Below, piece by piece: positions 19,958-24,932 of a stretch of DNA of 64,000 nt. The stretch spans positions 64,001 to 128,000 of the IMG/VR virus record IMGVR_UViG_3300037466_003648; one strand, given 5' to 3'. A program made the translations under genes and the position numbers. Position 1 is the stretch's first letter. The number at the start of each line of letters is the position of its first letter. The stretch comes from a virus (taxonomy: Duplodnaviria > Caudoviricetes). Under the pieces are notes generated by a model. That model was not told the DNA's origin. It saw only the letters and a list, made by a program, of their open reading frames with translations, and did not search any database.

Positions 19958-20030
19958 GGCGGAGTGGGCCAGCGGCTACGCCGGGAGTCTCATAAGCTCC
20001 AGATCGAGGGTTCGAGTCCCTCCTCCGCCC
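19958..20030 (+). tRNA. tRNA-Met/Ile2 (CAT), elongator type
   Basis: GGCGGAG/CTCCGCC acceptor, GGAGT-ctCATaa-GCTCC, TTCGAGT loop. Confidence 0.9.
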
Positions 20031-20061
20031 CCTAATCGTACCTTGACAACCTAACACACTA

Positions 20062-20153
20062 GGGCAGATGGTCGAGAGGCCGATGGCACCTGTTTCGAAA
20101 ACAGGAGGCCGGTGTAACAAGCCGGTCCGGGGGTTCGAATCCCTCTCTGCCCG
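20062..20153 (+). tRNA. tRNA-Ser(CGA)
   Basis: cloverleaf with long variable arm, G73. Confidence 0.92.
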
Positions 20154-20161
20154 CTTAACTT

Positions 20162-20247
20162 GGGTGGTTGGCAGAGAGGCCGATCGCGCGACTTTGCTAA
20201 AGTCGTGACCTCTATGGGGTCCGTGGGTTCGACTCCCACACCACCCG
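20162..20247 (+). tRNA. tRNA-Ser(GCT)
   Basis: cloverleaf with long variable arm, G73. Confidence 0.92.
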
Positions 20248-20250
20248 CCT

Positions 20251-20326
20251 TGGTCTGTAGCTCAACTAGCAGAGTGCTGGATTCTGACTCCAGAGGTTGC
20301 GGGTGCGAGTCCCGTCAGACCTGCCA
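20251..20326 (+). tRNA. tRNA-Gln(CTG)
   Basis: cloverleaf, encoded CCA, T-loop TGCGAGT. Confidence 0.88.
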
Positions 20327-20331
20327 TCAAT

Positions 20332-20404
20332 GGTCCTATCGTTCAGAGGCCAAGGACGCCGCATTGTCAATGCGGTAACACGGGTTCGAATCCCGTTAGG
20401 ACCG
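20332..20404 (+). tRNA. tRNA-Asp(GTC)
   Basis: cloverleaf parsed by hand. Confidence 0.92.
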
Positions 20405-20408
20405 CCTC

Positions 20409-20467
20409 GGGCATCGCCTACCCAGACCGTGGTGACGCGGCGTAAGTAGGAGCAACGGTGTCCACCA
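20409..20467 (+). ncRNA. armless Ala-identity (G3:U70, A73, CCA) minihelix-like RNA
   Basis: GGGCATCG/CGGTGTCC stem followed by ACCA; inner CCTAC/GTAGG stem; no D, T or anticodon arm. Confidence 0.55.
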
Positions 20468-20471
20468 ATAT

Positions 20472-20544
20472 GCGCGTGGAGCTGGGTTGGTTCAGCGCCG
20501 CCTTGCCAAGGCGGAGTCCACGGGTTCGATCCCCGTTACGCGCT
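20472..20544 (+). tRNA. tRNA-Gly(GCC)
   Basis: cloverleaf, U73. Confidence 0.92.
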
Positions 20545-20549
20545 CTCAT

Positions 20550-20621
20550 TGCTACGTAGCACAGCGGTAGTGCGGCGCACTGTTAATGCGAAGGTCGCTG
20601 GTTCGATCCCAGCCGTAGCAG
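20550..20621 (+). tRNA. tRNA-Asn(GTT)
   Basis: cloverleaf, G73. Confidence 0.92.
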
Positions 20622-20626
20622 CCTAT

Positions 20627-20698
20627 GCCCCAGTAGCTCAATGGCAGAGCGTCTGCCTTTGGAGCAGATGGTTGTCCGTTCAAGTCGGACCTGGGGTT
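20627..20698 (+). tRNA. tRNA-Gln(TTG)
   Basis: cloverleaf parsed by hand. Confidence 0.88.
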
Positions 20699-20709
20699 CT
20701 CAAGTTCCT

Positions 20710-20782
20710 GGTGATGTAGCTCAACAGGTAGAGCAAGCTCTTGATAAGGGCTAGGTCGGAGGTTCGAGTCCTCCCGTCACCA
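20710..20782 (+). tRNA. tRNA-Ile(GAT)
   Basis: cloverleaf, A73. Confidence 0.92.
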
Positions 20783-20790
20783 CCTCAAGA

Positions 20791-20925
20791 CGGTCGCGGG
20801 TAGCCAAATGGGTTTAAAAGTACCCGGCGGACGAGCGGCTGGTGTTCCTACGGGACCCGGTCATCCGCCTCGACGGTCTGATCTAGCGGAAGGACGCTCC
20901 GCAAGTGGGTGAGAATCCCACACCC
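20791..20925 (+). ncRNA. structured RNA ending in D-arm/T-arm-like elements
   Basis: GGGTA/TACCC; GGCGGA/TCCGCC stem with cTACGg loop; GTGGG-TGAGAAT-CCCAC T-arm-like hairpin. Confidence 0.45.
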
Positions 20926-20928
20926 TTT

Positions 20929-20999
20929 GGGTCTATAGCTCAATGGCAGAGCTGCCGACTCTTAATCGGTAGATCAGAGTTCGACTCTCTGTGGACCCA
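20929..20999 (+). tRNA. tRNA-Lys(CTT)
   Basis: cloverleaf parsed by hand. Confidence 0.92.
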
Positions 21000-21003
21000 C
21001 TCC

Positions 21004-21075
21004 GCCGGTGTGGCTCAATGGTACAGCAGTTGATTTGTAATCAACCACCTCTCGGTTCAAGTCCGGGTACCGGCA
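21004..21075 (+). tRNA. tRNA-Thr(TGT)
   Basis: cloverleaf parsed by hand. Confidence 0.92.
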
Positions 21076-21088
21076 TCGCACAGTTCTC

Positions 21089-21161
21089 GCTGGTGTAGCT
21101 CAGTTGGTAGAGCGGCTGCTTCGTAAGCAGCGGGTCACGAGTTCGATTCTTGTCACCAGCA
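21089..21161 (+). tRNA. tRNA-Thr(CGT)
   Basis: cloverleaf parsed by hand. Confidence 0.93.
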
Positions 21162-21166
21162 CCTAC

Positions 21167-21238
21167 GGTCGTCTGGCGCAACGGTGGCGCGGCTCCTTTA
21201 CACGGAGAGGGTTCAGGGTTCGAGTCCCTGGATGACCA
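21167..21238 (+). tRNA. tRNA-Val(TAC)
   Basis: cloverleaf parsed by hand. Confidence 0.92.
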
Positions 21239-21242
21239 CTAA

Positions 21243-21314
21243 CGGAATGTACGCAAGGGGTATGCGGTCTGCTTTGGGAGCAGGAAGTCGGGGGTTCAAA
21301 TCCCTCCATTCCGA
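21243..21314 (+). tRNA. tRNA-Pro(TGG)
   Basis: cloverleaf, C1:G72, A73. Confidence 0.92.
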
Positions 21315-21319
21315 CCTTT

Positions 21320-21401
21320 GGGGGTATAAGGGCTGTCGATTCGGTGAAAGCCCCATGCGGGAACGCCGAAGACCTGGGTTCAATTCCCAGTACCTCCACC
21401 A
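21320..21401 (+). ncRNA. tmRNA-like RNA reduced to the tRNA-like domain (no tag reading frame)
   Basis: GGGGGTA/TACCTCC with G3:U70, stemless D-loop ending TCGA, helix TTCGGTG/CGCCGAA, GAC linker, CTGGG-TTCAATT-CCCAG, ACCA. Confidence 0.8.
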
Positions 21402-21404
21402 ACG

Positions 21405-21541
21405 ACAGGGGCAACAAGGTGACCTGACCTTCCCCTACGCACCGCTCAAGGCCGTGTGGTTACAGGTGACGCTCGGGAGAGGACACCCGCTGATGGCTTG
21501 CCTCGCGGACACCGGGTGACAGTCGGGAATAGACCGGCACC
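21405..21541 (+). ncRNA. unassigned structured spacer RNA
   Basis: nested AGGGG/CCCCT and AAGGT/ACCTT; 3' GTCGG-GAATAGA-CCGGC hairpin. Confidence 0.3.
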
Positions 21542-21547
21542 TTTCAC

Positions 21548-21619
21548 GCCCGTTCAGCTCGTCGGTCGAGCATCTCCTTGACATGGAGAAGGCGGCTGGT
21601 TCAACTCCAGCAACGGGCT
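21548..21619 (+). tRNA. tRNA-Val(GAC)
   Basis: cloverleaf; U73 is atypical. Confidence 0.88.
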
Positions 21620-21625
21620 CTACAC

Positions 21626-21701
21626 GCCGTGACAGTCTGACTGGACAGATCTCTGGCCTTCATCCAGAGGGAAGCGGGTTCGAGTCCCGCACGCGGCACC
21701 A
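21626..21701 (+). tRNA. tRNA-Glu(TTC), atypical (C33)
   Basis: TCTGG-ccTTCat-CCAGA, encoded CCA, one acceptor mismatch. Confidence 0.75.
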
Positions 21702-21713
21702 TCAACAAATCAT

Positions 21714-21788
21714 GCCCCGGCAGACTGCTCGGCAGGGTCGCCAGGTTCTCAACCTGGAGGTAGGTGGGTTCGAATCCCCCGCGGGGTG
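21714..21788 (+). tRNA. tRNA-Glu(CTC)
   Basis: CCAGG-ttCTCaa-CCTGG; mismatches in the acceptor and T stems. Confidence 0.78.
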
Positions 21789-21795
21789 CCTTAGT

Positions 21796-21922
21796 CCTAC
21801 GTTAGCTTCAAGCCGTATCGAGAGGTGCGGACACCGCCTGGGTGACCAGGATAGTCGGTGGGTTAGAGCGACCCAGGATTCTGTGCCTGGGGAGGTTGTC
21901 GGTTCGAGTCCGGGGCGTAGGA
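21796..21922 (+). ncRNA. tRNA-like RNA with a 57-nt D-loop and 8-nt anticodon loop
   Basis: CCTACGT/GCGTAGG acceptor, TA, D-stem GCTT/GAGC, CCCAGG/CCTGGG stem, TTCGAGT loop. Confidence 0.7.
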
Positions 21923-21929
21923 TACTAAC

Positions 21930-21996
21930 GGGAGATGGCAGATCCTTCCGATAGGCTGCAGGGCGGGCAACCGCCGTAAGTGCAAAACTGCCACCC
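21930..21996 (+). ncRNA. small structured spacer RNA
   Basis: TGGCAG/CTGCCA closing stem; GGCGG-GCAA-CCGCC GNRA hairpin. Confidence 0.3.
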
Positions 21997-22002
21997 TTCA
22001 AT

Positions 22003-22075
22003 GCGGTAGTAGCTCAGTTGGCAGAGCGCGTGCCTTCCAAGCATGATGTCGCAGGTTCGAAGCCTGTCTACCGCA
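22003..22075 (+). tRNA. tRNA-Gly(TCC)
   Basis: cloverleaf parsed by hand. Confidence 0.92.
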
Positions 22076-22104
22076 CCTGGTCGTAGCAAGAGAAGGAGAT
22101 CGCC

Positions 22105-22266
22105 ATGGCACATTACAAGCGGAAGAAGCAGAAGGAACGGGTTCGTCGGACCAGCGGCTACGACACGGAGAAGGTCCGAGCCTCTTACCACGGATGGCAC
22201 GCCTTGCTGCCTGCCATCCGTCTGCAGATGATCAAGGTCAAGGAAGAGCTGCGCGACGCAGCGTAA
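22105..22266 (+). CDS. small basic protein (53 aa) inside the tRNA array
   Basis: AAGGAG SD; MAHYKRKKQKERVRR... Confidence 0.6.
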   Translation: MAHYKRKKQKERVRRTSGYDTEKVRASYHGWHALLPAIRLQMIKVKEELRDAA

Positions 22267-22271
22267 GTTAT

Positions 22272-22411
22272 GGCCGGGTAGCTCAAGAGTAGAGCGCGAG
22301 CCTGATAAGCTCGTCTTCGTTGCGTAGTGGACACTGATCAACCACGGTAGCAACGAAGCGGTTGGAGGTCGCTCCTTCAACTGATGCCGGTGACGACTCC
22401 GGCCCTGGCCG
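22272..22411 (+). ncRNA. tRNA-like RNA (GAT anticodon) with a 72-nt two-hairpin variable region
   Basis: GGCCGGG/CCTGGCC acceptor, normal D arm, CGAGC-ctGATaa-GCTCG, GCCGG-TGACGACT-CCGGC, G73. Confidence 0.72.
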
Positions 22412-22426
22412 CCCTTCACAACATCT

Positions 22427-22499
22427 GGGCCTGTAGCTCCAATGGTAGAGCAGCTCCTTTGCAAGGAAAGGGTTGGCGGTTCGAGTCCGCCCAGGTCCA
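22427..22499 (+). tRNA. tRNA-Ala(TGC)
   Basis: G3:U70, A73; weak anticodon stem. Confidence 0.85.
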
Positions 22500-22501
22500 C
22501 T

Positions 22502-22610
22502 GGTTCTCACGACGTCCCGTGAACCTTGTTCGAACTGTTGCAACAGTTCGAACAAGGGTAGATGACAGGGATCAAAGCGCTGAAAGGTAAGCCGCGTCGT
22601 GAGAACCGCC
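22502..22610 (+). ncRNA. structured RNA with a 13-bp terminal stem and 34-bp perfect palindrome
   Basis: 22502-22514 pairs with 22595-22607; palindrome at 22524-22557. Confidence 0.5.
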
Positions 22611-22613
22611 CTT

Positions 22614-22686
22614 GGTCGGGTAGCTCCAACGGTAGAGCAGGCGCCTGAAAAGTGCCGTGTTGTCGGTTCGAGTCCGACCCCGACCA
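22614..22686 (+). tRNA. tRNA-Phe(GAA)
   Basis: cloverleaf parsed by hand. Confidence 0.92.
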
Positions 22687-22703
22687 CTCTTTTGATCCAG
22701 GGG

Positions 22704-22733
22704 TTGACAGATCCCATCTATGTGTGTTAGGGT
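22704..22733 (+). promoter_or_regulatory. internal promoter of the tRNA array
   Basis: TTGACA 22704-22709, 18 nt, TG-n-TAGGGT 22728-22733. Confidence 0.7.
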
Positions 22734-22867
22734 TGTCCAACTATGAACGCCGTGATCGCCAACTTGCTGTTGCTAGCCCTGCCGGTTGCAGGGTATCGAC
22801 GCTGGCGACATTCTTCTTGCGGCGGTCGACTTACCCTGCATCTGGCGTAACCTCTTCACTCCTTTCT

Positions 22868-22950
22868 CGGGACGTGGCGAAATGGCAGATGCGCCTGGCT
22901 CAGAACCAGGTGGGCGAAAGCCCGTGGGAGTTCGACTCTCCCCGTCCCGA
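22868..22950 (+). tRNA. tRNA-Leu(CAG)
   Basis: cloverleaf with variable arm, A73. Confidence 0.92.
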
Positions 22951-22954
22951 CTCT

Positions 22955-23037
22955 GCGGATGTGGCGTAATGGCAGATGCGCACGCCTGAGTAGCGTGTGA
23001 GCGTAAGCTCGTGTGAGTTCGAGTCTCACCGTCCGCA
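22955..23037 (+). tRNA. tRNA-Leu(GAG)
   Basis: cloverleaf with variable arm. Confidence 0.92.
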
Positions 23038-23043
23038 CTACAA

Positions 23044-23126
23044 GTCGGGATGATGAAATGGCAGCCTTGGTGGTCTCAAAAACCGCTGTCCGTAAGGACG
23101 TGGGGGTTCGACTCCCCCTCCCGGCA
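23044..23126 (+). tRNA. tRNA-Leu(CAA)
   Basis: cloverleaf with variable arm. Confidence 0.88.
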
Positions 23127-23149
23127 CTCTTCCAGTACCTTGACAATCT

Positions 23150-23224
23150 GTGCCCGCAGCTCGATGGACGAGCACTCCCCTCCGAAGGGAGCGGTTGCGC
23201 GTTCGAGTCGCGCCGGGCACGCCA
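23150..23224 (+). tRNA. tRNA-Arg(CCG)
   Basis: cloverleaf, encoded CCA. Confidence 0.92.
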
Positions 23225-23225
23225 T

Positions 23226-23298
23226 GTGCGTGTAGTTCAAACGGAAGAACGTCGGCCTCCTAAGCTGACGGTTGCTGGTTCGAGTCCAGCCGCGCACT
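23226..23298 (+). tRNA. tRNA-Arg(CCT)
   Basis: cloverleaf parsed by hand. Confidence 0.9.
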
Positions 23299-23302
23299 CT
23301 AA

Positions 23303-23375
23303 GCCCGCATAGCTCAATTGGACAGAGCACTGGTCTACGAAGCCGGGGACGTAGGTTCGACTCCTACTGTGGGTG
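23303..23375 (+). tRNA. tRNA-Arg(ACG)
   Basis: cloverleaf parsed by hand. Confidence 0.9.
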
Positions 23376-23379
23376 CTGT

Positions 23380-23451
23380 GGTGACTGTAGGCTAACGGTA
23401 AGCCGCCTGATTGTGGATCAGGTGATGCGGGTTCGATCCCCGTCAGTCACA
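23380..23451 (+). tRNA. tRNA-His(GTG)
   Basis: cloverleaf with encoded G-1; A73 rather than the usual bacterial C73. Confidence 0.9.
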
Positions 23452-23456
23452 CCTAT

Positions 23457-23537
23457 GCCAGTATGGGTGAGTAGCAATACCGGCTGCCTGTAAAGCAGCT
23501 CCCTCTGGGTTCCCTGGTGCAAGTCCAGGTGCTGGCA
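23457..23537 (+). tRNA. tRNA-Tyr(GTA)
   Basis: cloverleaf with variable arm; T-loop TGCAAGT. Confidence 0.88.
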
Positions 23538-23543
23538 CTCCAT

Positions 23544-23614
23544 CTACCGGTAGCCAAGTAGTAAGGTAGCGGTCTGCAAAACCGCCAGCGTGGGTGCGAT
23601 TCCCACCCGGTAGT
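23544..23614 (+). tRNA. tRNA-Cys(GCA)
   Basis: cloverleaf, U73; T-loop TGCGATT. Confidence 0.88.
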
Positions 23615-23618
23615 CTCT

Positions 23619-23690
23619 GCGTCGTAAAGATTACGGTAGTCGGCTGGTCTCCAAAACCAGCAGCGGTGGGTTCGACTCCCCCACGATGCG
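23619..23690 (+). tRNA. tRNA-Trp(CCA)
   Basis: cloverleaf, G73. Confidence 0.88.
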
Positions 23691-23697
23691 CTCTCTT

Positions 23698-23781
23698 GGT
23701 TGGTAGGGTTCAGTGGTGAGCACCACCGTCGGAAGCGGTGGCCGGGTGTCACAGCCTTCGGTTCGACTCCGATGCCAACCG
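23698..23781 (+). tRNA. tRNA-Ser(GGA), 8/4 architecture
   Basis: 8-bp acceptor GGTTGGTA/TGCCAACC, 4-bp T stem TCGG/CCGA, variable arm, G73. Confidence 0.75.
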
Positions 23782-23791
23782 CCTCATCCCC

Positions 23792-24163: not shown

Positions 24164-24508
24164 ATGGACATCGGCGGGTATAGCCACCCCAAAGCTCGCA
24201 AGCAGCACGTCTGCTACATCTGTAGCACGTTCATCGAGGTGGGTGAGACCTACACCCGCTGTAAAGGTCTCTGGCAGGGTGAGTGGCAGAACTGGTGTGC
24301 CCACAAGATCTGTCTTGCCATCGAAGATGCCAGCCGCGACTGTTGCGACGACGAGTTGTCCCAGTTGGGGTGGTCGGAGTTGGTCGAGCTGTGTACCACG
24401 GAAGCCCATCTCTGCACCTTCCTCGAACGTTTCCCTCCCGAAGATGAGGAGCAAGCCAAGCTCGCTCACTTCCAAGCCAAGCATTTAGGAGCACGTCAGC
24501 ATGCCTAG
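24164..24508 (+). CDS. Cys/His-rich hypothetical phage protein
   Basis: GGAGG SD; KARKQHVCYIC...CAHKIC. Confidence 0.7.
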   Translation: MDIGGYSHPKARKQHVCYICSTFIEVGETYTRCKGLWQGEWQNWCAHKICLAIEDASRDCCDDELSQLGWSELVELCTTEAHLCTFLERFPPEDEEQAKLAHFQAKHLGARQHA

Positions 24509-24932
24509 CGCCCTTCTCCCCATCAAGAACGACTACCACATCATGGGTCTGCGGGGCATCTTCCGCACCGAGATCAAGTTCGAGGAGAACCACGTCAACC
24601 TCACGATCAACAACGTCGAGGTCCAGCTGGCGCATCAAGGGCTGCAGGACATGCGCGCCATGGAGATGCGCTACCAGCTCGTGCGTGCCATCCACCAGAA
24701 CCAGGAGTTCACGATGTGCTACACGACGCCGGGCACCAAGAAGGTGGCCTCCACGGATGTCGTCGTGCGCGTGCTGCCCATCAAGCTCGGCTTCATCGAG
24801 ACGCCGCTTGCCAAGGCCAAGTCCTGGGTGCTGACTGCCTCCGTGGACGGCAAGGAGCAGGACTTCCTGGTGGAGAACATCCGGGGCACCTGGAACTACC
24901 TGATGCACGTCAAGCAGGAGGCCACCGCGTGA
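24501..24932 (+). CDS. hypothetical protein, C-terminal part possibly WYL-like
   Basis: Y...RVLPIKL...WVLTA...DFLVENI loosely resembles a WYL domain. Confidence 0.55.
   Translation: MPSALLPIKNDYHIMGLRGIFRTEIKFEENHVNLTINNVEVQLAHQGLQDMRAMEMRYQLVRAIHQNQEFTMCYTTPGTKKVASTDVVVRVLPIKLGFIETPLAKAKSWVLTASVDGKEQDFLVENIRGTWNYLMHVKQEATA

What the first reader, a model, noticed from the sequence alone, without database searches (positions are those of the whole stretch)
21796..21922. tRNA scaffold with a folded domain in the D-loop and an 8-nt anticodon loop
Seen: canonical acceptor, U8-A9 and D-stem GCTT/GAGC, but the D-loop is 57 nt (21809-21865) and folds as a three-way junction (CCG/CGG, TATC/GATA, GGTG-cgga-CACC, CTGG-gtga-CCAG). 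The anticodon stem is 6 bp with loop ATTCTGTG. The acceptor can extend further (TTAG/CTAA). Inference: a tRNA-chassis RNA presenting an aptamer-like domain, a non-canonical intron, or a +1 frameshifting tRNA.
Basis: partly seen in the sequence, partly recalled or inferred. Interest (0 to 1): 0.75.

Follow-up and report, generated by a model that had tools for sequence, protein, structure and literature searches.

The report
Phage tRNA look-alike with D-loop insert
A 205-kb soil phage carries, inside its 32-tRNA gene array, a 127-base gene with a complete tRNA body, two extra hairpins in its D loop and an eight-base "anticodon" loop. It is clearly tRNA-derived and probably does not read codons, but nothing yet shows that it is expressed, conserved or what it does.

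Summary
The element at 21796-21922 is real. It has a 7-bp acceptor (8 bp with T21795-A21922), U8-A9, a GCTT/GAGC D stem, G18G19, a canonical T arm, and a 6-bp stem with the 8-nt loop ATTCTGTG. It lies 5 nt behind tRNA-Glu in a 32-tRNA array of a complete 205-kb phage with terminal repeats. Chance does not explain it: 3 of 20,000 shuffles reproduce acceptor + U8 + D-stem strand.

The 48-nt insert (21813-21860) forms two GNRA-capped hairpins (z = -3.9, 96% of the ensemble), between D-loop CAAG and G18G19. ARAGORN's "tRNA-Leu(UAG)" call is an artefact (-19.5 against -51.6 kcal/mol).

I read it as a non-decoding tRNA-shaped RNA released by tRNA processing. The loop fits no U33-NNN-R37 frame, and the phage barely uses AGA (2 of 501 Arg codons). 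No splicing endonuclease is encoded, and removing the insert would still not give a normal tRNA. A pseudogene cannot be excluded, because no orthologue, paralogue, strain variation or RNA data were found.

The closest analogues are T4 rnaC/rnaD and the Lak megaphage tRNA "introns". Unchecked notes of this scan report D-loop hairpins and 8-nt-loop tRNA look-alikes in other phages.

The parts
21796..21802 (+). 5' strand of the acceptor stem (CCTACGT). T21795 can add an eighth pair with A21922.
   Evidence: Pair probabilities 0.94-1.00, and 0.87 for T21795-A21922. Shuffle test.
21803..21812 (+). U8-A9, 5' strand of the D stem (GCTT), and the 5' part of the D loop (CAAG).
   Evidence: The same TAGCTC-CAAY layout occurs in this array's tRNA-Phe and tRNA-Ala. 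The covariance model aligns it to the UAGCUC of ordinary tRNAs.
21813..21830 (+). Insert hairpin H1: 7-bp stem (two G.U pairs) with a GAGA tetraloop.
   Evidence: Pair probabilities 0.94-0.99.
21832..21860 (+). Insert hairpin H2: 5 bp, a 5-nt AUAGU bulge on the 3' side, then 5 bp, with a GUGA tetraloop. A21831 links H1 and H2.
   Evidence: Pair probabilities 0.91-0.94.
21861..21869 (+). 3' part of the D loop (GGTTA: G18, G19, A21) and 3' strand of the D stem (GAGC).
   Evidence: Aligned to GGUAGAGC of canonical tRNAs by model R1.
21870..21891 (+). GA spacer (two nucleotides where tRNAs have one, position 26), then the anticodon-arm equivalent: a 6-bp stem CCCAGG/CCTGGG with the 8-nt loop ATTCTGTG.
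   Evidence: Pair probability 0.87-0.88. ARAGORN reads it as the four-base anticodon 'tctg' once the insert is deleted.
21892..21897 (+). Variable region GAGGTT. G21892-A21893 could form tandem G.A pairs with G21870-A21871.
   Evidence: The G.A pairing is inference from the sequence.
21898..21914 (+). T arm: 4-bp stem TCGG/CCGG (plus the G.G mismatch 21898/21914) and T loop TTCGAGT.
   Evidence: An 18-nt stretch is identical to the T arm of tRNA-Phe at window 22659-22676. Pair probability 0.53-0.88.
21915..21922 (+). 3' strand of the acceptor stem (GCGTAGG) and discriminator A21922. No CCA is encoded; the next base is T, as behind all 24 class-I tRNAs of the array that were tabulated.

Best explanation
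This is a genuine tRNA-derived gene that most likely yields a stable tRNA-shaped RNA of about 127-130 nt that does not decode.

Shown:
- It occupies a normal slot in a tRNA array with no internal + strand terminator.
- It keeps the acceptor/T-arm minihelix and the D-loop/T-loop elbow nucleotides.
- It carries a very stable 48-nt module of two GNRA-capped hairpins, exactly between D-loop CAAG (positions 14-17) and G18G19.
- Its anticodon-arm equivalent has a 6-bp stem and an 8-nt loop.

Inferred:
- It is co-transcribed with its neighbours.
- RNase P cuts it at the 5' end, and RNase Z or exonucleases trim the 3' end.
- The host enzyme adds CCA, since the phage encodes none.
- It folds into an L-shape from whose elbow side two helices project.
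- It acts as a tRNA mimic that some tRNA-binding factor recognises. That factor could be a tRNA-targeting host defence nuclease, a modification or charging enzyme, or a phage protein. The two GNRA helices would add a binding or docking surface.

Which partner it has is not known.
For: Position and context:
- It starts 5 nt after tRNA-Glu(CTC) in a 32-gene array of a complete 205,180-bp phage record with terminal repeats.
- No + strand terminator-like site lies inside the array.

The tRNA body is real:
- 3 of 20,000 shuffles reproduce acceptor + U8 + D-stem strand.
- Model R1 aligns all four stems to ordinary tRNAs at 20-36 bits.
- After in-silico deletion of the insert, ARAGORN finds a tRNA.

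Core tertiary positions are kept: U8, CAA as in this phage's tRNA-Phe and tRNA-Ala, G18G19, A21, G53, T54, T55, C56, A58, C61.

The insert looks selected rather than random:
- -25.4 kcal/mol, z = -3.86, 0 of 200 shuffles as good, one fold holding 96% of the ensemble.
- Both loops are GNRA. The array holds 8 of the genome's 76 such + strand hairpins in 1.9% of its length.

Decoding is unlikely:
- The loop ATTCTGTG fits no Y32-U33-NNN-R37 frame.
- AGA is 2 of 501 Arg codons and CTA is 11 of 791 Leu codons in 24 phage genes, and tRNA-Gln(CTG) already exists.

The element is unchanged in strains whose array has been rearranged elsewhere.

Precedent: the T4 tRNA cluster encodes the stable RNAs rnaC and rnaD. 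rnaC has a canonical T arm, a large folded domain in the D region and a non-anticodon hairpin.
Against: - No orthologue was found, so there is no covariation and no proof of selection.
- The strains that carry the element are 99.7% identical, so its invariance has no statistical weight.
- The array at this locus is small or absent in the relatives found.
- The body has defects a decaying gene would also show: the G.G mismatch at 49-65, U.G at 50-64, an extra nucleotide at position 26, and an 8-nt loop.
- The D stem is weak thermodynamically (probability 0.05-0.07).
- No expression data exist, and no partner protein has been identified.
Confidence: 0.5

Rival explanations
1. It is a pseudogene. 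A duplicated tRNA gene, with D and T arms like this array's tRNA-Phe/Ala and an anticodon/variable region like its tRNA-Gln(CTG), was inactivated by a 48-nt insertion in the D loop and by changes in the anticodon loop. It is carried along, and perhaps still processed, without any function.
For: - It is a singleton: no orthologue in relatives and no paralogue in the genome.
- The array is plastic between strains and relatives.
- There are several small defects: the 49-65 G.G mismatch, the extra nucleotide at 26, and the 8-nt loop.
- The T-arm 5' strand is identical to that of tRNA-Phe, but the 3' strand has two changes that weaken pairing.
Against: - The inserted sequence is not a repeat or a known mobile element, and no target duplication is visible.
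- It folds far better than shuffles, into two GNRA hairpins.
- It sits at the one D-loop site where length naturally varies.
- All nucleotides for the elbow and the acceptor are intact, and the acceptor has no mismatch.
- Phage genomes rarely keep dead DNA, but this is a general expectation, not a test.
Confidence: 0.27
2. It is a working adaptor tRNA with an enlarged D loop. It would either read a four-base codon (anticodon UCUG or UUCU, giving +1 frameshifting), or read CAG or AGA with an atypical loop.
For: - Eight-nucleotide anticodon loops are the hallmark of +1 frameshift suppressor tRNAs (established knowledge).
- ARAGORN labels the insert-deleted form tRNA-?(Arg|Gln)(tctg).
- GGATTCTG and AGGTTG are shared with the array's tRNA-Gln(CTG) at matching positions.
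- The acceptor, elbow and T arm are intact.
Against: - The loop reads A-U-[UCUG]-U-G or A-U-U-[CUG]-U-G. Neither gives a pyrimidine at 32 together with a purine 3' of the anticodon.
- AGA is almost unused (0.4% of Arg codons), and CAG already has a dedicated tRNA.
- Position 20 is U, not the A20 needed by ArgRS. The acceptor is not Gln-like, which would need G2-C71, G3-C70 and G73 (established identity rules; sequence).
- A 48-nt domain next to the elbow would probably clash with ribosomal elbow contacts (inference).
Confidence: 0.12
3. The 48-57 nt are an intervening sequence that is cut out and the halves are religated, giving a shorter tRNA.
For: - The phage encodes an Rnl2/DRB0094-type RNA ligase domain (PF09414, E = 4e-23) at genome 45140-45691.
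- Archaeal tRNAs can carry introns at non-canonical positions (PMC3241643; PMC4033280).
- Lak megaphage tRNAs carry unexplained 'introns' (PMC6784885).
Against: - No tRNA splicing endonuclease and no RtcB are encoded.
- The tRNAs are of bacterial type: tRNA-Tyr has a long arm.
- The insert matches no group I/II intron or small ribozyme family in Rfam.
- No bulge-helix-bulge motif can be drawn at the junctions in the stable fold.
- The product would still have an 8-nt loop.
- Phage RNA ligases are better known for tRNA repair (established knowledge).
Confidence: 0.05
4. ARAGORN's call is right: the gene is a 90-nt class-II tRNA-Leu(UAG) at 21832-21921, and the upstream 36 nt are a leader.
For: - ARAGORN reports it.
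- TG at 21839-40 and a GG-containing loop resemble tRNA-Leu D arms.
- The 10-mer GATTCTGTGC also occurs in genuine tRNA-Leu(UAG/UAA) genes.
Against: - That fold has two adjacent acceptor mismatches, a 3-bp D stem with two G.U pairs, no position 26 and a G.G in the anticodon stem.
- It scores -19.5 against -51.6 kcal/mol, and its acceptor pairs have probability 0.00.
- Rfam's tRNA model does not report it even at E up to 10.
- In real tRNA-Leu the shared 10-mer lies in a different structural place.
- CTA is 1.4% of Leu codons.
Confidence: 0.03

Closest known systems
Bacteriophage T4 rnaC (species 1 RNA, 139 nt) and rnaD (species 2 RNA, 119 nt), in the T4 tRNA cluster (NC_000866 70908-71171)
   Same: Both are non-tRNA stable RNAs encoded as members of a phage tRNA gene cluster. 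rnaC has a canonical T arm (CCGGG/UUCGAAU/CCCGG), end pairing, a roughly 60-nt folded domain where the D arm would be, and a hairpin without an anticodon loop. Size and layout therefore match. Their function is also unknown.
   Different: There is no sequence or profile relationship: model R1 scores rnaC at 7.6 bits, E = 0.29. In rnaC the D arm is replaced. Here the D stem and the D-loop elbow nucleotides are kept and the extra helices are added inside the loop.
'Enigmatic introns' in Lak megaphage tRNAs (Devoto et al. 2019, PMC6784885)
   Same: These are also phage tRNA genes interrupted by tens of nucleotides with no known splicing mechanism, and they are conserved among strains.
   Different: The Lak inserts were found with eukaryote-mode tRNAscan, so at the anticodon-loop position. 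One of them may itself be a tRNA. Here the insert is in the D loop, and the anticodon loop is aberrant as well.
Archaeal non-canonical tRNA introns (bulge-helix-bulge, many positions including the D arm; PMC3241643, PMC4033280)
   Same: A short insert inside a tRNA gene, away from position 37/38.
   Different: These need a BHB motif and the archaeal splicing endonuclease. The phage is bacterial in type, encodes no such enzyme, and no BHB motif is apparent.
+1 frameshift suppressor tRNAs with 8-nt anticodon loops (e.g. Salmonella sufD; my own knowledge)
   Same: An eight-nucleotide anticodon loop on a tRNA body.
   Different: Suppressors are otherwise normal tRNAs with U33 and a purine 3' of the anticodon. 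This loop has neither in a consistent frame, and the body carries a 48-nt D-loop domain.
Engineered 'tRNA scaffold' for expressing structured RNAs in bacteria (Ponchon and Dardel 2007; my own knowledge)
   Same: The same logic: a tRNA body gives processing and stability to a foreign folded RNA module.
   Different: The engineered scaffold is artificial and places its cargo in the anticodon arm. Here the cargo is in the D loop and arose naturally. No cargo function is known.
Phage tRNAs as counter-defence against tRNA-cleaving host systems (PMC10264068; PMC11555353)
   Same: A member of a large phage tRNA array with an altered anticodon loop.
   Different: Those are functional decoders with point changes that escape nucleases. 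This element probably does not decode, and a decoy role is only a hypothesis.

Membership tests
Canonical tRNA (Rfam RF00005) | 7-bp acceptor stem closing the molecule, followed by a discriminator base | tested here: met
   21796-802 pairs with 21915-921, pair probability 0.94-1.00. Shuffle test.
Canonical tRNA (Rfam RF00005) | T arm with G53, T54, T55, C56, R57, A58 and C61 | tested here: met
   GG / TTCGAGT / CC at 21901-21911. 18 nt are identical to the tRNA-Phe T arm. The 49-65 pair is a G.G mismatch.
Canonical tRNA (Rfam RF00005) | D arm: 3-4-bp stem, loop of about 7-11 nt with G18G19 | tested here: not met
   The stem GCTT/GAGC and G18G19 are present, but the loop is 57 nt. The stem has pair probability 0.05-0.07.
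Canonical tRNA (Rfam RF00005) | 5-bp anticodon stem and 7-nt loop with U33 and a purine at 37 | tested here: not met
   6-bp stem and 8-nt loop ATTCTGTG, with two nucleotides between it and the D stem.
Canonical tRNA (Rfam RF00005) | Reaches the family's gathering score | tested here: not met
   No RF00005 match at the element, either at the gathering score or at E up to 10. The reverse test is positive: model R1 of the element scores ordinary tRNAs at 20-36 bits.
Archaeal-type BHB intron in a tRNA | Splicing endonuclease available, from host domain or virus | tested here: not met
   PF01974 is absent from the complete phage genome. The tRNA set is bacterial in type, with an 82-nt tRNA-Tyr. 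The host genome is unknown.
Archaeal-type BHB intron in a tRNA | Bulge-helix-bulge motif at both junctions | tested here: inconclusive
   I saw none in the dominant fold. No dedicated BHB search tool was available.
Self-splicing intron or small self-cleaving ribozyme | Match to a catalytic core (group I/II, hammerhead, twister, pistol, hatchet) | tested here: not met
   No Rfam match at E up to 10 in 21700-22010. The insert is only 48 nt.
+1 frameshift suppressor tRNA | 8-nt anticodon loop | tested here: met
   Loop 21878-85. ARAGORN reads '(tctg)'.
+1 frameshift suppressor tRNA | An otherwise normal, chargeable tRNA body with U33 and a purine 3' of the anticodon | tested here: not met
   The loop context is A-U-UCUG-U-G, the D loop is 57 nt, and there is an extra nucleotide at position 26.
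+1 frameshift suppressor tRNA | Quadruplet sites in genes that need it | not tested
   No search for programmed frameshift sites was made.
Phage tRNA-cluster stable RNAs (T4 rnaC/rnaD type) | Encoded within a phage tRNA gene cluster, with tRNA-like ends and a T arm | tested here: met
Phage tRNA-cluster stable RNAs (T4 rnaC/rnaD type) | Homology to rnaC or rnaD | tested here: not met
   R1 against the T4 cluster: rnaC scores 7.6 bits (E = 0.29), and rnaD gives no match.
Phage tRNA-cluster stable RNAs (T4 rnaC/rnaD type) | Accumulates as a stable processed RNA | not testable with these tools
   No RNA data are available for this phage.

The most novel reading that the evidence does not exclude
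This is a natural 'tRNA scaffold'. The phage would use the host's tRNA maturation machinery and the stability of the tRNA L-shape to display a two-helix, GNRA-capped module from the D loop. The whole RNA would be a selected effector, for example a decoy or inhibitor of a tRNA-targeting defence enzyme, or a docking partner for another of the phage's many tRNA-shaped RNAs. That would make D-loop position 17 a previously unrecognised site for functional domain insertion in tRNA-like RNAs.
Probability: 0.2. Interest if true: 0.75.

Novelty: new variant of a known kind. Interest (0 to 1): 0.45.

Why it matters
Phage tRNA clusters have been known for 50 years to hold extra stable RNAs of unknown function, such as T4 species 1 and 2. 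Recent work shows that phage tRNAs take part in the arms race with tRNA-cleaving defence systems. This phage offers an unusually rich set of tRNA-shaped RNAs. This member shows that a large folded module can be placed in the D loop while every elbow and acceptor determinant is kept. If it is expressed and selected, it would be a compact natural example of a tRNA body used as a carrier for another RNA domain. It would also be a handle for finding the protein that recognises it. If it is a dead gene, it is only a curiosity of tRNA array turnover.

Tried and rejected
Homologue searches that gave nothing useful:
- BLAST of the element and its surroundings against 50,697 phage records, near and distant modes: no match.
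- The search for related loci in IMG/VR with both array-flanking proteins: none.
- DNA polymerase against the phage collection and IMG/VR: hits of at most 27% identity. Of these records only G005 has tRNAs, and it has none like the element.
- Word-indexed protein searches with the upstream 222-aa protein and the 53-aa ORF inside the array: only themselves.
- The DNA polymerase search did find relatives at 78-38% identity. I fetched eight of their loci. L019 holds a truncated array of 5 tRNAs, L022 holds 2 tRNAs, and L020, L021, L170, L171, L173 hold none at the syntenic site.
- Model R1 finds no element-like hit in any of them, nor a paralogue in the phage's own genome.
- A profile search with the 143-aa protein behind the array: 3 strong hits only, and no new array.

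Pattern scans:
- Viral contigs with the 3' acceptor/T arm: 0 hits.
- Viral contigs with D loop + 8-nt loop + T loop: 2 chance hits.
All those inspected were ordinary tRNAs with a chance upstream 7-mer, so this scan was neither exhaustive nor informative.
- Genome contigs and viral contigs with the loop 10-mer + T loop: only chance hits and genuine tRNA-Leu(UAG/UAA), where the 10-mer has another structural role.

Expression: no RNA holder was listed for the array, so expression could not be examined.

Strain variation:
- Contigs from other soil and rhizosphere runs that cover the element carry no differences and no shortened form.
- L015 and L016 are identical across the element.
- At 99.7% identity this says nothing either way.

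Readings rejected:
- ARAGORN's tRNA-Leu(UAG).
- A match to any Rfam family.
- The insert being a genomic repeat.
- Homology to T4 rnaC/rnaD.
- H2's upper stem (CCTGG/CCAGG) equals the anticodon stem of the array's tRNA-Leu(CAG). A 7-mer match within a 3.8-kb array is expected by chance about one time in four, so I gave it no weight.

Full report
WHERE IT IS. The window is bases 64001-128000 of a 205,180-bp IMG/VR virus record with direct terminal repeats, rated 100% complete. G+C content is about 62%. The record comes from soil and rhizosphere metagenomes. ARAGORN finds 32 tRNA genes between 19958 and 23783, all on the + strand, and Rfam confirms 27 of them. The set is bacterial in type: tRNA-Tyr is 82 nt, so it has a long variable arm. 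The element begins 5 nt after tRNA-Glu(CTC), which ends at 21790. It ends 80 nt before tRNA-Gly(TCC), which starts at 22003. No + strand terminator-like site lies inside the array, so co-transcription with the neighbours is the simplest assumption.

THE OBSERVATION.
- acceptor CCTACGT/GCGTAGG: seven pairs, one of them U.G, and an eighth if T21795 pairs with A21922;
- T21803-A21804 as U8-A9;
- GCTT/GAGC as the D stem;
- a 57-nt enclosed loop;
- CCCAGG/CCTGGG with the loop ATTCTGTG;
- a T arm with the loop TTCGAGT.

It is not chance. A 7-mer able to pair with the 3' acceptor strand turns up in 812 of 20,000 shuffles of the upstream sequence. The combination with U8 and a strand complementary to GAGC turns up in 3 of 20,000. 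With the insert skipped, it aligns from the first to the last position with ordinary tRNAs of this phage, of a related phage and of T4, at 20-36 bits. When I deleted 21809-21859 in silico, ARAGORN called a tRNA with a four-base 'anticodon' tctg. The body is therefore a true tRNA homologue.

Its D arm (TAGCTT-CAAG ... GGTTA-GAGC) has the same layout as this array's tRNA-Phe and tRNA-Ala (TAGCTC-CAAY-GGTA-GAGC). An 18-nt stretch of its T arm is identical to that of tRNA-Phe. Its GGATTCTG and AGGTTG are shared with tRNA-Gln(CTG) at matching positions.

WHAT NEEDS CORRECTING.
1. The insert is not best drawn as a three-way junction. The whole molecule scores -39.7 kcal/mol in that fold and -51.2 with two adjacent hairpins. 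These are H1 (21813-30, 7 bp, GAGA loop) and H2 (21832-60, 5 bp, AUAGU bulge, 5 bp, GUGA loop). The insert alone folds this way at -25.4 kcal/mol, with 96% of the ensemble in that one structure. Its z-score is -3.86 and none of 200 shuffles folds as well. No alternative lies within 3 kcal/mol.
2. The true insertion is 48 nt. What remains of the loop (CAAG, A, GGTTA) is a normal D loop, so the module sits between position 17 and G18. That is the stretch whose length varies among natural tRNAs.
3. The body is not fully canonical. Two nucleotides (GA) instead of one separate the D stem from the next stem. The 49-65 pair is G.G. The nearest-neighbour model gives the D stem little support (probability 0.05-0.07), although the acceptor, H1, H2, the 6-bp stem and the T stem are all at 0.87-1.0.
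4. The TTAG/CTAA extension is weak (0.13-0.30).
5. ARAGORN's own call for this locus, tRNA-Leu(UAG) at 21832-21921, is an artefact. It needs two acceptor mismatches, a 3-bp D stem with two G.U pairs and a G.G in the anticodon stem. It scores -19.5 against -51.6 kcal/mol, and its acceptor pairs have zero probability.

WHAT IT IS NOT.
- Rfam has no match in 21700-22010 even at E up to 10. That covers group I/II introns, small ribozymes, Y-RNA-like RNAs and riboswitches.
- The insert is unique in the genome and shows no flanking duplication, so it is not a repeated mobile hairpin.
- The complete phage genome encodes no tRNA splicing endonuclease, no RtcB and no CCA-adding enzyme.
- It does encode an Rnl2/DRB0094-type RNA ligase domain, a type of enzyme better known for tRNA repair.
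- Even if the insert were removed, the product would keep the 8-nt loop and the odd position 26.

DOES IT DECODE? The loop A-U-U-C-U-G-U-G gives no frame with a pyrimidine at 32, U33 and a purine after the anticodon. In 24 genes (8,459 codons), AGA is 2 of 501 arginine codons and CTA is 11 of 791 leucine codons. CAG is common, but the array's tRNA-Gln(CTG) already serves it. Position 20 is U, whereas ArgRS needs A20. The acceptor is neither Gln-like nor Ala-like (established identity rules applied). A four-base reader cannot be excluded, but it would be an odd one.

CONSERVATION AND EXPRESSION. This is the weak point.
- Near-identical strains (L015, L016, and contigs of four other runs) carry the element without a single change and without a shortened form. 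They are 99.7% identical overall, so this has no weight.
- It is mildly notable that L015 has a rearranged array nearby: tRNA-Phe has moved and a 538-nt segment with an ORF is inserted. The element is kept all the same.
- More distant relatives exist, with DNA polymerase 78, 64, 60, 54, 52 and 38% identical. The array at this locus is truncated at the contig end (L019), reduced to two tRNAs (L022) or absent (L020, L021, L170, L171, L173).
- Model R1 finds nothing like the element in them, in the phage's own genome or in five IMG/VR records reached through the polymerase.
- Pattern scans of the viral, metagenome and genome collections gave only chance hits or ordinary tRNAs.
- No covariation test was therefore possible.

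MOST LIKELY MECHANISM. I read the element as a tRNA-shaped, non-decoding RNA.
- Shown: its place in the array, the intact acceptor/T-arm minihelix and elbow nucleotides, the very stable two-hairpin module at D-loop position 17, and the non-canonical loop.
- Inferred: co-transcription, release by RNase P and RNase Z or exonucleases, CCA addition by the host enzyme, an L-shaped fold with two GNRA-capped helices projecting beside the elbow, and action as a mimic recognised by a tRNA-binding factor.

GNRA-capped hairpins are enriched in the array, with 8 of the genome's 76 in 1.9% of its length. Most of the others are the variable arms of tRNA-Leu and tRNA-Ser, so the insert looks like two extra 'variable arms' grafted into the D loop. 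Work on phage tRNAs that escape or compensate for tRNA-cleaving defences (PMC10264068, PMC11555353) makes a decoy or inhibitor role thinkable, but I have no evidence for a specific partner. I put this reading at 0.5, a pseudogene at 0.27, a decoder (including a quadruplet reader) at 0.12, an intron at 0.05 and ARAGORN's tRNA-Leu at 0.03.

COMPARISON WITH WHAT IS KNOWN. The nearest analogue is T4 rnaC (species 1 RNA) with its neighbour rnaD, annotated in the T4 tRNA cluster as small stable RNAs. rnaC folds with a canonical T arm, terminal pairing, a roughly 60-nt domain in the D region and a hairpin with no anticodon loop. That layout matches, but there is no homology (7.6 bits), and in rnaC the D arm is replaced rather than expanded. 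Lak megaphage tRNAs carry unexplained inserts, but at the anticodon-loop position. Archaeal BHB introns can lie in the D arm but need an enzyme this system lacks.

Earlier unchecked notes of this scan describe other tRNA-shaped RNAs in this same phage: a minihelix, a mini-tmRNA and tRNA bodies with anticodon-loop or variable-region inserts. On other DNA they describe a phage initiator tRNA with a 25-nt D-loop hairpin and a 129-nt phage tRNA-like RNA with an 8-nt loop. I used them as leads only. The T4 comparison is the one I tested.

VERDICT. It is best classed as a new variant of the poorly understood phage tRNA-cluster RNAs. Without orthologues or RNA data, function is not established and a dead gene remains a serious rival. 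Interest is moderate (0.45).

Noticed in passing
window 19958-23783: All 24 class-I tRNAs that I tabulated are followed by T immediately after ARAGORN's 3' end. Most encode the discriminator plus C or CC and then T, and only three encode a full CCA. The element follows the rule too (A21922 then T). This may be a 3'-processing signal.
   Followed up: no
L015 13955-14493, against window about 22501-22700: A 99.7%-identical strain has tRNA-Phe 3 nt behind tRNA-Ala, and a 538-nt segment with a 142-aa ORF where the window has spacers and tRNA-Phe. Five of the nine substitutions in the array fall inside tRNA-Gly(GCC), at 20497-20537.
   Followed up: partly
window 24501-24932; L019 1379-1828; L022 8216-8668; L147 2024-2485: The 143-aa protein right behind the array is conserved in two relatives (48% and 42% identity). 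Its only other detectable relative lies directly behind a T4 Rnl1-type RNA ligase gene, which hints at a tRNA-related role.
   Followed up: partly
G000:C1:45140-45691 (outside the window): The phage has an Rnl2/DRB0094-type RNA ligase domain (PF09414, E = 4e-23) in a 378-aa frame. It has no tRNA splicing endonuclease, RtcB or CCA-adding enzyme.
   Followed up: partly
window 21923-22002: The 80-nt spacer behind the element folds into a closed structure with a GGCGG-GCAA-CCGCC hairpin (-25.8 kcal/mol, z = -1.4). It is unusually long for this array, where spacers are mostly 3-13 nt.
   Followed up: partly
L019 346-420: A relative whose DNA polymerase is 78% identical encodes a 75-nt class-I-shaped tRNA with anticodon UAG. 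ARAGORN calls it Leu, but it has no long variable arm.
   Followed up: no
window 22272-22411, 20409-20467, 21320-21401, 20791-20925: The same array holds further non-canonical members noted by other readers: an Ile-like body with a 72-nt variable region, a minihelix, a mini-tmRNA and an elbow-only RNA. I saw the sequences but did not analyse them.
   Followed up: no
L153, L154, L162, L164, L165, L167, L169: Genuine tRNA-Leu(UAG/UAA) genes of diverse bacteria and phages share the 10-mer GATTCTGTGC: the end of the anticodon loop, the 3' anticodon stem and the start of the variable arm. This explains why the pattern scan hit them.
   Followed up: yes
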